A stretch of 64,000 nt of DNA from Escherichia phage 121Q, in the sequence record NC_025447.1. The stretch is one strand, 5' to 3'. Below, piece after piece: positions 59,834-59,869 of this stretch; the stretch's first letter is position 1, and each line of letters begins with the position of its first letter. The position numbers and the translations under genes were made by a program. The notes below the pieces were generated by a model. It ran no database searches and was not told the DNA's origin. It saw nothing but the letters and a program-made list of their open reading frames with translations.

Positions 59834-59849
59834 AAAGATATCCTCGTTT

Positions 59850-59857
59850 TATTTATA
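59850..59857 (-). promoter_or_regulatory. T4-type late promoter box TATAAATA upstream of endolysin gene
   Basis: Exact TATAAATA on minus strand, ~17 nt upstream of ATG, followed by GAGGA RBS. Confidence 0.45.
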
Positions 59858-59869
59858 GTGCTAAAATAT

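What the first reader, a model, noticed from the sequence alone, without database searches (positions are those of the whole stretch)
59834..59869. Exact T4-type late promoter box upstream of the endolysin gene
The 36-nt gap between the gp5-like and endolysin genes contains, on the coding strand, CACTATAAATAAAACGAGGATATCTTT before the ATG: an exact TATAAATA followed by a GAGGA RBS. Near-matches (TATAAATC or CATAAATA) precede the fibre gene at 25690, the homing-endonuclease-like gene at 58864 and the giant ORF. This suggests T4-like gp55-dependent late transcription.
Basis: partly seen in the sequence, partly recalled or inferred. Interest (0 to 1): 0.4.

Follow-up and report, generated by a model that had tools for sequence, protein, structure and literature searches.

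The report
Tandem late-promoter boxes before phage lysozyme
The flagged TATAAATA is real and most likely belongs to a T4-style late promoter of a jumbo coliphage. The signal this phage group uses is the 7-mer ATAAATA, the conserved copy lies 17 bases upstream of the flagged one, and this promoter type was already predicted in related phages, so the finding is ordinary.

Summary
The window comes from an Asteriusvirus-type jumbo coliphage, 96% identical to phage JP4. The sequence is exactly as described: TATAAATA at 59857-59850 (minus strand), GAGGA, then the ATG of a 162-aa lysozyme.

A single TATAAATA is not an excess. It occurs once in 64 kb against about 10 expected. The real signal is ATAAATA:
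- It occurs 13 times against 38 expected.
- 11 of the 13 copies lie on the coding strand within 65 nt upstream of a start codon.
- It is the most enriched of all 7-mers at that position.
- The base before it is unconstrained, so the motif is NATAAATA.
- The sixth base after it is A in 23 of 29 sites, where T4 late transcripts start.

The gap holds two boxes. AATAAATA at 59874-59867 overlaps the gp5-like stop codon and is conserved in 13 of 13 genomes across several genera. It is already listed as a predicted promoter in phage CBB. The flagged box is a second copy found only in close relatives.

The parts
59867..59874 (-). Box P1, AATAAATA (core ATAAATA 59873-59867). It overlaps the TAA stop (59872-59870) of the gp5-like gene. 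This is the ancestral, conserved late-promoter box, 33 nt from the lysozyme ATG.
   Evidence: The core is conserved in 13 of 13 genomes of Asteriusvirus, Mimasvirus, Eneladusvirus, 7t3 and EJP2, while the following bases vary. Its ortholog is listed as Porf_239, ATAAATACTTATAC, in Buttimer 2017 Table S7.
59850..59857 (-). Box P2, TATAAATA, the flagged box. It is a second tandem copy 17 nt downstream of P1 and 16 nt from the ATG.
   Evidence: It is invariant in the window and 5 close Asteriusvirus genomes despite substitutions on both flanks. It is shifted in A4, reads CTAAATA in 7t3, and is absent in CBB, GAP32, BF, pEa47 and EJP2.
59861..59862 (-). Predicted transcription start for P1 (fifth and sixth nt after the box: A, G).
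   Evidence: Inferred. T4 boxes span -13 to -6 (PMC1524935). The sixth nt after the box is A in 23 of 29 sites.
59844..59844 (-). Predicted transcription start for P2. It is an A inside GAGGA, which would leave an 11-nt leader.
   Evidence: Inferred. A comparably short arrangement (17 nt) occurs before the JP4 head protease gene (L001 39728).
59841..59845 (-). Shine-Dalgarno GAGGA, 7 nt before the ATG.
59345..59833 (-). 162-aa GH24 lysozyme gene, first gene of the unit.
   Evidence: Pfam PF00959, 5e-9. It is 52% identical to aa 728-885 of the gp5-like protein. The ortholog LysUE1 has shown lytic activity (PMC12805682).
58934..59329 (-). gp25-like baseplate wedge gene, second gene of the unit.
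   Evidence: Pfam GPW_gp25, 1.2e-8.
58906..58929 (-). Intrinsic-terminator-like hairpin plus T-run that closes the lysozyme-gp25 unit.
   Evidence: The equivalent terminator is annotated in phage G17.
59870..62533 (-). 887-aa gp5-like baseplate hub and tail lysozyme gene upstream of the gap. No terminator lies between it and the lysozyme gene.
   Evidence: Pfam Phage_base_V, DUF2345 and Phage_lysozyme.
58891..58897 (-). ATAAATA box after the terminator. It lies ahead of the HNH gene and the baseplate wedge gene.
   Evidence: The 14-mer is the same as CBB Porf_237, ATAAATATTTCTAT.
54591..54597 (-). ATAAATA box (CATAAATA) ahead of the giant virion protein gene.
   Evidence: It corresponds to CBB Porf_236.
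25724..25730 (-).
36503..36509 (-). ATAAATA box of a divergent pair, ahead of the tail protein gene.
36538..36544 (+). ATAAATA box of the same divergent pair, ahead of the 36577 operon.
6794..6800 (+). ATAAATA box ahead of the tail sheath gene.
9868..9874 (+). ATAAATA box ahead of the tail tube gene.
13579..13585 (+). ATAAATA box ahead of a virion structural protein gene.
14104..14110 (+). ATAAATA box ahead of the 14154 gene, which leads a run of virion protein genes.

Best explanation
The gap between the gp5-like gene and the lysozyme gene carries a late promoter of the T4 gp55 class. It drives a short unit: lysozyme, gp25-like baseplate protein, then a terminator.

In this phage group the recognised element is the 7-mer ATAAATA, written NATAAATA. 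It corresponds to positions -12 to -6 of the T4 box. There is no -35 element. I infer that it is read by host core RNA polymerase carrying the phage's gp55-type sigma, with initiation about 6 nt downstream, usually at an A.

The gap holds two such boxes in tandem.
- The ancestral box is AATAAATA at 59874-59867, on top of the stop codon of the gp5-like gene. Its predicted start is near 59861-59862, giving a leader of about 28 nt that contains the second box and the ribosome-binding site.
- The flagged TATAAATA at 59857-59850 is a second copy specific to close relatives. It is probably also competent and would start at about 59844 with a very short leader. It may instead be only part of the leader.

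What is shown: the sequence, the positional enrichment, the conservation, and the homology of the sigma.

What is inferred: sigma binding, start sites, late timing, and which box fires.
For: Motif statistics:
- ATAAATA occurs 13 times against 38 expected in the window.
- 11 of the 13 copies are on the sense strand within 65 nt upstream of a start codon. That zone is 2.6% of positions, giving p about 3e-16, the top-ranked of all 7-mers.
- Over 206,786 nt of window plus JP4 sequence, 30 of 47 copies lie 14-65 nt upstream on the sense strand (3.8% of positions, p about 4e-31).
- ATAAATA is the rarest of the 21 A5T2 permutations outside that zone, with 17 copies against 100-187 for 19 of the other 20 (the overlapping TAAATAA has 30).

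Motif shape:
- The base before the box is unconstrained.
- The sixth base after it is A in 23 of 29 sites (p about 4e-6).
- No upstream position is conserved, and the median distance to the ATG is 35 nt.
- This matches the T4 geometry of -13 to -6 (PMC1524935).

Late or structural association:
- In the window the boxes precede sheath, tube, baseplate, fibre-like and virion protein genes.
- In the JP4 early region, all 3 properly spaced boxes precede 3 of the only 4 genes annotated as virion proteins among 123 called ORFs.
- Non-structural genes carry TGNTATAAT instead.

Conservation:
- The upstream box is present in 13 of 13 genomes across genera.
- Its ortholog is listed as a predicted promoter in CBB.
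- RaK2, which has no lysozyme gene after gp5, has no box there.

Sigma:
- Relatives encode the gene in T4-like 55-47-46 synteny.
- PHROG late sigma family, 8e-18.
- tblastn hits to several hundred cyanophage gp55 genes, including S-PM2 at 1e-6, whose predicted promoter is NATAAATA.
- hhalign against T4 gp55, E 1.3e-6.

Other:
- No sigma-70-type match lies in the gap.
Against: - No transcription start site or timing data exist for any Asteriusvirus or Rak2-like phage in the literature I searched. Promoter function rests on sequence statistics and homology.
- The sigma gene is not inside the window. Its presence is inferred from relatives that are 95-96% identical.
- I found no gp33 or gp45 homolog. 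The 10 candidates tested against PHROGs gave nothing. phmmer over about 245 of 370 kb gave nothing. Buttimer 2017 also found none in CBB.
- The flagged box is 16 nt from the ATG, so a start there would fall inside GAGGA. It is also missing outside the close relatives.
- The upstream box overlaps a conserved C-terminal codon and the stop codon, so part of its conservation is coding constraint. The three bases after the stop are non-coding and are still invariant.
- The gene could also be expressed by read-through from the gp5-like gene, since no terminator separates them.
Confidence: 0.75

Rival explanations
1. Only the upstream conserved box (59874-59867) is a promoter. The flagged TATAAATA is transcribed leader sequence, an A/U-rich 5' UTR element, and not a second start signal.
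For: - The flagged box is absent in CBB, GAP32, BF, pEa47 and EJP2, while the upstream box is universal.
- It lies 16 nt from the ATG against a median of 35 nt, and its predicted start falls inside the Shine-Dalgarno sequence.
- A TATAAAT follows an ATAAATA box by 5-9 nt at three sites: the 25690, 58864 and 59833 genes. That is 3 of 27 boxed upstream regions, against 1 of 272 unboxed upstream regions.
- At the other two sites the element is TATAAATC, which lacks the core. This suggests a recurrent leader element, not a second promoter.
Against: - A perfect ATAAATA is strongly purged everywhere except at promoter positions. This promoter class has no other known determinant, so a perfect copy should be recognised.
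- The flagged box is invariant in 6 Asteriusvirus genomes although both flanks vary.
- It has the typical A at the sixth downstream position.
- Another box lies 17 nt from an ATG ahead of the JP4 head protease gene.
- The downstream TATAAAT is not conserved in CBB at the 58891 ortholog.
Confidence: 0.3
2. The flagged TATAAATA is a chance A/T-rich string in an A/T-rich intergenic gap and has no function of its own.
For: - The genome is about 35% G+C.
- About 10 copies of the 8-mer are expected by chance in 64 kb.
- One-mismatch variants occur at the chance level.
Against: - The only copy in 64 kb lies on the coding strand just upstream of a gene.
- The ATAAATA core is depleted three-fold overall and concentrated 17-fold in promoter positions.
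- The box is conserved among close relatives while its flanks vary.
Confidence: 0.04
3. The box is the -10 element of a host sigma-70 (or phage RpoD-like sigma) promoter used early or in the middle of infection.
For: - TATAAA matches 5 of 6 positions of TATAAT.
- The phage group also encodes an RpoD-like sigma (JP4 CDS0143).
Against: - The scan finds no sigma-70-type site in the gap, and the regional count equals chance at 32 against 30.7.
- The sigma-70-like promoters of this phage have the form TGNTATAAT (16 copies against 8.2 expected) and lie ahead of non-structural genes.
- The flagged box lacks the TG and the final T.
- The downstream genes are baseplate-associated.
Confidence: 0.03
4. 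ATAAATA acts at the RNA level, as a processing or cleavage site or a translational enhancer in leaders, and not as a DNA promoter element.
For: - It is strand-specific and always lies in leaders or at gene junctions.
- Several copies follow terminators or sit inside operons.
Against: - An exact 7-mer matching positions -12 to -6 of the T4 late box co-occurs with a structural homolog of gp55.
- The conserved A six bases downstream fits an initiation site.
- Divergent back-to-back boxes at 36503 and 36538 fit promoters.
- Boxes directly after terminators (58929-58906, then 58897-58891) need a new start.
Confidence: 0.05

Closest known systems
Predicted ATAAATA late promoters of Rak2-like jumbo phages CBB and GAP32 (Buttimer et al. 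2017, PMC5259590, Table S7; the GAP32 motif is cited there)
   Same: - The core is the same 7-mer, and it lies ahead of structural genes.
- The orthologous site ahead of the 162-aa lysozyme gene is listed as Porf_239, ATAAATACTTATAC.
- Porf_237 has the same 14-mer as window 58897-58884.
- The CTAAATA variant is also used.
- A gp55-like sigma is present, and no gp33 or gp45 was found.
   Different: - This window is from a different genus (Asteriusvirus). None of the five Asteriusvirus papers checked for the word mentions a promoter.
- The gap here carries a second tandem box, the flagged TATAAATA, which CBB and GAP32 lack.
- All of these are predictions. None has been mapped experimentally.
Bacteriophage T4 late promoters (TATAAATA at -13 to -6, read by gp55 with gp33 and the gp45 sliding clamp)
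   Same: - The box sequence is the same and there is no -35 element.
- The position ahead of late structural genes is the same.
- The likely start is 6 nt downstream.
- The sigma is a sequence and fold homolog of gp55, in 55-47-46-like synteny.
   Different: - The first T is not conserved here.
- The sigma is 279 aa with an extra N-terminal domain of about 120 aa.
- It lacks the SLDFLYEAND-type C-terminal tail of T4 gp55.
- I detected no gp33 or gp45 homolog.
NATAAATA / CTAAATA late promoters predicted in other T4-related phages (cyanophage S-PM2, RB49, KVP40, Aeh1)
   Same: - The -13 position is relaxed, and CTAAATA occurs as a variant (PMC2984593; PMC1524935).
- The sigma of this group finds cyanophage gp55 genes directly by tblastn.
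   Different: Those phages carry recognisable gp33 and gp45 genes. None was found here.

Membership tests
T4-type (gp55-class) late promoter | Box TATAAATA, or its core ATAAATA, on the coding strand | tested here: met
   TATAAATA is at 59857-59850 and AATAAATA at 59874-59867.
T4-type (gp55-class) late promoter | The motif recurs upstream of many genes more often than chance | tested here: met
   This holds for ATAAATA: 11 of 13 copies in the window and 30 of 47 over 207 kb lie in the upstream sense zone, and it is the top 7-mer. It does not hold for the full 8-mer TATAAATA in the window, which occurs once.
T4-type (gp55-class) late promoter | No conserved -35 element | tested here: met
   No conserved position between -20 and -1 in 29 aligned sites, only T-richness. 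No sigma-70-type match in the gap.
T4-type (gp55-class) late promoter | Lies ahead of late (virion structural) genes and not early genes | tested here: met
   The boxes precede sheath, tube, baseplate and virion protein genes. In the JP4 early region, 3 of 3 properly spaced boxes precede genes annotated as virion proteins. Timing itself was not measured.
T4-type (gp55-class) late promoter | Transcription starts about 6 nt downstream of the box (box at -13 to -6) | tested here: inconclusive
   The evidence is indirect. The sixth base after the box is A in 23 of 29 sites. No 5'-end data exist.
T4-type (gp55-class) late promoter | A gp55-family sigma is encoded by the phage | tested here: met
T4-type (gp55-class) late promoter | Co-activator gp33 present | tested here: inconclusive
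   phmmer with T4 gp33 over ORFs of about 245 of 370 kb gave nothing (best E 2.8). No PHROG hit among the small candidates tested. Buttimer 2017 found none in CBB. Iyer 2021 states that group 2 jumbo phages have a gp33 ortholog. About 164 kb of the genome was not examined.
T4-type (gp55-class) late promoter | Activation by the gp45 sliding clamp | tested here: inconclusive
   A clamp loader is present (gp44 homolog, 7e-22), but no gp45 match was found (best E 3.4). Five clamp-sized candidates had no clamp PHROG hit. The sigma lacks a T4-like C-terminal clamp-binding tail.
T4-type (gp55-class) late promoter | Sigma-dependent initiation at the box, in vitro or in vivo | not testable with these tools
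   This needs transcription assays or 5'-end mapping.
Sigma-70 promoter (-35 / -10) | TTGACA-like hexamer 16-18 nt upstream of a TATAAT-like hexamer ending in T | tested here: not met
   The scan reports no site in 59834-59880 on the minus strand. The box reads TATAAA and has no TG extension.

The most novel reading that the evidence does not exclude
Late transcription in this phage group may run on a gp55-type sigma alone, without gp33 or a sliding clamp. The sigma has an extra N-terminal domain of about 120 aa with no detectable relatives, and it lacks the acidic-hydrophobic C-terminal tail that T4 gp55 carries (I recall this tail as the gp45-binding epitope). More distant members of the same family still carry such a tail. 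I detected no gp33 or gp45 homolog. If the bare 7-mer is sufficient for firing, that would explain why ATAAATA is purged so strongly from the rest of the genome. It would also allow tandem boxes, as in this gap, to act as a simple dosage device.
Probability: 0.2. Interest if true: 0.5.

Novelty: new member of a known kind. Interest (0 to 1): 0.15.

Why it matters
The value is mainly for annotation.
- It fixes the late-promoter consensus for Asteriusvirus coliphages as NATAAATA with a start about 6 nt downstream.
- It gives a transcription-unit map for the baseplate and lysozyme region: promoter, lysozyme, gp25-like gene, terminator, next promoter.
- It shows that a literal search for the T4 8-mer would miss most sites in this window (1 of 13).

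It does not change what is known about this promoter class. The open mechanistic question is whether these phages couple late transcription to replication through a clamp as T4 does. That question concerns the sigma and its partners, not this box.

Tried and rejected
- Testing TATAAATA and its one-mismatch family as the motif: no excess.
- Treating TATAAATC as a promoter variant: rejected. Most copies are in coding sequence. The two upstream copies each follow a perfect ATAAATA, and the element is not conserved in CBB.
- Sigma-70 reading of the box: no match.
- Looking for published start-site or transcriptome data for Asteriusvirus or Rak2-like phages: none found. The PA5oct RNA-seq paper reports no late motif.
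- Searching for gp33, gp45 and DsbA by PHROG scans of 10 positional candidates and by phmmer with the T4 proteins: nothing. One exception is a 100-aa protein upstream of the DNA polymerase gene, which hits a 'transcriptional regulator' PHROG at 1e-7.
- Testing whether the N-terminal 124 aa of the sigma is a fused gp33: no support.
- Checking whether the two 887-aa ORFs (6851-9514 and 59870-62533) are a repeat: they are unrelated, a tail sheath and a gp5-like protein.
- I did not fetch JP4 100,001-263,956, so the genome-wide counts cover about 207 kb of non-redundant sequence.

Full report
**What the window is.** Bases 58000-63000 match Escherichia phage JP4 at 96% identity over their full length. 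They match PBECO4, phAPEC6, G17, Sharanji and other Asteriusvirus jumbo coliphages at about 95-96%. The annotated JP4 region gives the gene order around the finding on the minus strand:
- virion protein genes
- an 887-aa gp5-like baseplate hub and tail lysozyme (59870-62533; Phage_base_V, DUF2345 and Phage_lysozyme domains)
- a 162-aa lysozyme (59345-59833; PF00959)
- a gp25-like protein (58934-59329)
- an HNH endonuclease (58100-58864)
- a baseplate wedge protein
- a giant virion protein

**The observation.** The minus strand at 59860-59831 reads CACTATAAATAAAACGAGGATATCTTTATG, exactly as reported. TATAAATA occupies 59857-59850, GAGGA 59845-59841 and the ATG 59833-59831.

- TATAAATA occurs once in the window on both strands, against 10.4 +/- 3.4 expected from dinucleotide-preserving shuffles. 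That is a depletion with Poisson p about 3.5e-4, not an excess.
- One-mismatch variants are at chance, 223 against 215.
- TATAAAT is at or below chance, 28 against 37.

**The real motif.** Reading the 70 nt upstream of every gene showed a recurring ATAAATA with a variable base in front.
- ATAAATA occurs 13 times against 38 +/- 6 expected.
- 11 of the 13 copies lie on the coding strand within 65 nt upstream of a start codon, a zone that is 2.6% of strand positions.
- This makes ATAAATA the most position-enriched of all 7-mers, ahead of every Shine-Dalgarno word (binomial p about 3e-16).

I added about 143 kb of non-overlapping JP4 sequence, for 206,786 nt in total.
- 30 of 47 copies lie 14-65 nt upstream on the sense strand (3.8% of positions, p about 4e-31).
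- Among the 21 permutations of five A and two T, ATAAATA is both the commonest in that zone and the rarest outside it. It has 17 copies outside, against 100-187 for 19 of the other 20; the overlapping TAAATAA has 30.
- The motif is therefore selected for at gene fronts and selected against elsewhere.

**Anatomy of the motif.** I aligned 29 non-redundant sites.
- The base before the box is A 10, C 3, G 7, T 9, so the first T of the T4 box is not part of the signal.
- No upstream position is conserved. There is only T-richness, partly from terminator tails.
- The sixth base after the box is A in 23 of 29 sites (p about 4e-6).
- The distance from box to ATG has a median of 35 nt and a range of 16-64.
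- The T4 late box lies at -13 to -6 (PMC1524935), so the sixth base after it is +1. The conserved A fits an initiating purine.
- The same paper reports that the T at -13 is poorly conserved in other T4-like phages and that Aeh1 uses CTAAATA. Cyanophage S-PM2 was assigned NATAAATA (PMC2984593).
- CTAAATA is also enriched upstream here, with 9 of 28 copies in the zone.

**Which genes carry it.** In the window the boxes precede the tail sheath, a tail tube gene, virion protein genes, the 654-aa fibre-like gene, a tail protein, the giant virion protein, the baseplate wedge (through the HNH gene) and the lysozyme. In the JP4 early region of 50 kb and 123 called ORFs, the only three properly spaced boxes precede three of the four genes annotated as virion structural proteins. 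The chance of that is about 3e-5. Beyond the window end, boxes precede the baseplate hub, the major head protein, the head protease and other head-region genes. Non-structural genes in the window instead carry extended -10 sigma-70-type elements, TGNTATAAT, at 16 copies against 8.2 expected.

**Two boxes in the gap.** The gap and the stop codon in front of it hold two copies 17 nt apart:
- AATAAATA at 59874-59867, overlapping the TAA stop of the gp5-like gene
- the flagged TATAAATA at 59857-59850

I extracted the same junction from 12 other genomes of Asteriusvirus, Mimasvirus (CBB, GAP32), Eneladusvirus (BF, pEa_SNUABM_47), Salmonella phage 7t3 and EJP2.
- The upstream ATAAATA is present in all 13, including the three non-coding bases after the stop, while the next bases vary.
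- The flagged box is invariant only in the window and five close Asteriusvirus genomes, whose flanks do vary.
- It is shifted in A4, reads CTAAATA in 7t3, and is absent in CBB, GAP32, BF, pEa47 and EJP2.
- RaK2 has no lysozyme gene after gp5. It has a terminator-like sequence there and no box.

The upstream box lies 33 nt from the ATG, which is typical. The flagged box lies 16 nt from the ATG, the shortest of all sites. Its predicted start (A at 59844) falls inside GAGGA. One other site has a similar 17-nt arrangement, ahead of the JP4 head protease gene. The flagged box cannot therefore be excluded on spacing alone.

No sigma-70-type site lies in the gap. A terminator-like hairpin at 58929-58906 closes the lysozyme-gp25 unit and is followed at once by the next box at 58897-58891.

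**The trans-acting factor.** The sigma gene is not in the window. JP4 and G17 encode it about 2 kb past the window end, next to the SbcD/SbcC-like genes. T4 has its genes 55, 47 and 46 as near neighbours in the same order. Evidence for the 279-aa protein:
- no Pfam hit and no PDB sequence hit
- PHROG 'late sigma transcription factor' at 8e-18 over residues 125-262
- tblastn hits to several hundred cyanophage gp55 genes
- a profile of 25 family members aligns to T4 gp55 residues 12-114 with 90.6% probability and E 1.3e-6, sharing the NP(F/H)AY...NAF segment
- Foldseek found nothing

**What is missing.** I found no gp33 or gp45 homolog.
- Ten positional candidates had no relevant PHROG hit.
- phmmer with T4 gp45, gp33 and DsbA against all ORFs of about 245 of 370 kb gave nothing. 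The gp44 and gp32 controls were found.
- Buttimer et al. reported the same absence for CBB.
- Iyer et al. state in general terms that group 2 jumbo phages have gp33 and a PCNA-type clamp. I could not resolve that disagreement.

T4 gp55 ends in SLDFLYEAND. The Asteriusvirus-type sigma ends in ...IERKNEDGSV, with no such motif. More distant family members end in DIFDFGD or LDDLFPFDD. The N-terminal 120 residues match nothing.

**Comparison with what is known.** Buttimer et al. 2017 (PMC5259590) ran MEME on the upstream regions of the structural genes of phage CBB.
- They reported the consensus ATAAATA at 35 sites and noted its resemblance to the T4 late promoter.
- They noted the same motif in GAP32 and the presence of a gp55-like sigma.
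- Their Table S7 lists Porf_239, ATAAATACTTATAC at 162,810-162,823. This is the ortholog of the upstream box in this gap.
- It also lists Porf_237, ATAAATATTTCTAT, which is identical to window 58897-58884, and Porf_236 for the giant gene.
- None of the five Asteriusvirus papers checked for the word (phAPEC6, fEgEco12, Sharanji, UE-S1) mentions a promoter.

The kind is therefore published as a prediction. This window adds one more genus and a tandem second box.

**The downstream gene.** The 162-aa protein is 52% identical to the C-terminal lysozyme domain of the preceding gp5-like protein. Its UE-S1 ortholog, LysUE1, has been purified and is lytic. Whether it is the lysis endolysin or a baseplate-associated enzyme is not settled. 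CBB has a separate candidate endolysin.

**Verdict.** The sequence observation is correct. Its significance was mis-assigned: the signal is ATAAATA, not the T4 8-mer or TATAAATC.
- The gap carries a gp55-class late promoter for the lysozyme-gp25 unit.
- The conserved box lies 17 nt upstream of the flagged one.
- The flagged box is a lineage-specific second copy. I put the chance that it fires at about one half.
- My confidence that ATAAATA is the late-promoter core in this phage is about 0.9.
- My confidence that the gap holds at least one functional late promoter is about 0.8.

Novelty is low and interest is about 0.15.

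Noticed in passing
window 58100-58864 (minus), with the box at 58891-58897 and the terminator at 58906-58929: An HNH or DUF723-type endonuclease gene sits between the late-promoter box and the baseplate wedge gene. Most relatives lack this roughly 765-nt segment. Their matches cover 85% of the query in two pieces, and in G17 the terminator is followed directly by the wedge gene. JP4 has the segment. The mobile gene seems to have landed just downstream of a late promoter.
   Followed up: partly
window, 16 sites, for example 2205, 2269, 5806, 18149, 21218 and 42208 (plus strand): The extended -10 element TGNTATAAT occurs 16 times against 8.2 expected, and no shuffle out of 100 reaches 16. 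It lies mostly ahead of non-structural genes (nudix hydrolase, ATPase, protease). This matches the second, RpoD-like promoter class described for CBB.
   Followed up: partly
JP4 locus L001 27985-28824 (sigma gene, about 2 kb past the window end) and family members P0093, P0109, P0110, P0113: The gp55-type sigma has an N-terminal domain of about 120 aa with no detectable relatives. It lacks the SLDFLYEAND-type C-terminal tail of T4 gp55. More distant family members do end in acidic-hydrophobic tails such as DIFDFGD and LDDLFPFDD.
   Followed up: partly
window 25711-25730, 58877-58897 and 59850-59873 (minus): A TATAAAT follows an ATAAATA box by 5-9 nt at three sites. That is 3 of 27 boxed upstream regions against 1 of 272 unboxed ones, with 0.03 expected. 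In CBB the ortholog of the 58891 site keeps 'tttctata' but not TATAAAT. The meaning is unknown. It could be a leader element or a weak second box.
   Followed up: partly
window 36503-36509 (minus) and 36538-36544 (plus): Two ATAAATA boxes lie back to back in one divergent intergenic region, each about 32-36 nt from the likely start of its gene. This looks like a divergent late-promoter pair.
   Followed up: no
window 6738-6744 (minus) and 10710-10716 (plus): These are the only two ATAAATA copies in the window that are not at a gene front. One is antisense in the 3' end of the dNMP kinase gene. The other is 20 nt inside the second tail tube gene.
   Followed up: no
window 54554-54584 (minus): The longest-ORF start of the giant gene (ATG at 54584) is probably wrong. 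JP4 annotates a product 10 codons shorter. An ATG preceded by GGAG lies 30 nt downstream, which puts the box 36 nt from the start. The TTG start at 36502 is probably too far upstream in the same way.
   Followed up: partly
window 59345-59833 and 59870-62533 (minus): The 162-aa lysozyme is a paralog of the C-terminal lysozyme domain of the adjacent gp5-like protein, 52% identical over 158 aa. This suggests a tandem duplication of that domain as a separate gene.
   Followed up: partly
window 6851-9514 (plus) and 59870-62533 (minus): Two ORFs have exactly 887 aa each. They are unrelated (a tail sheath and a gp5-like hub), so the equal length is a coincidence.
   Followed up: yes
JP4 locus L018 2056-2358 (outside the window): A 100-aa protein just upstream of the DNA polymerase gene hits PHROG 639 'transcriptional regulator' at 1e-7. 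It may be the DsbA-like factor that Iyer et al. mention for this group. phmmer with T4 DsbA did not find it.
   Followed up: no
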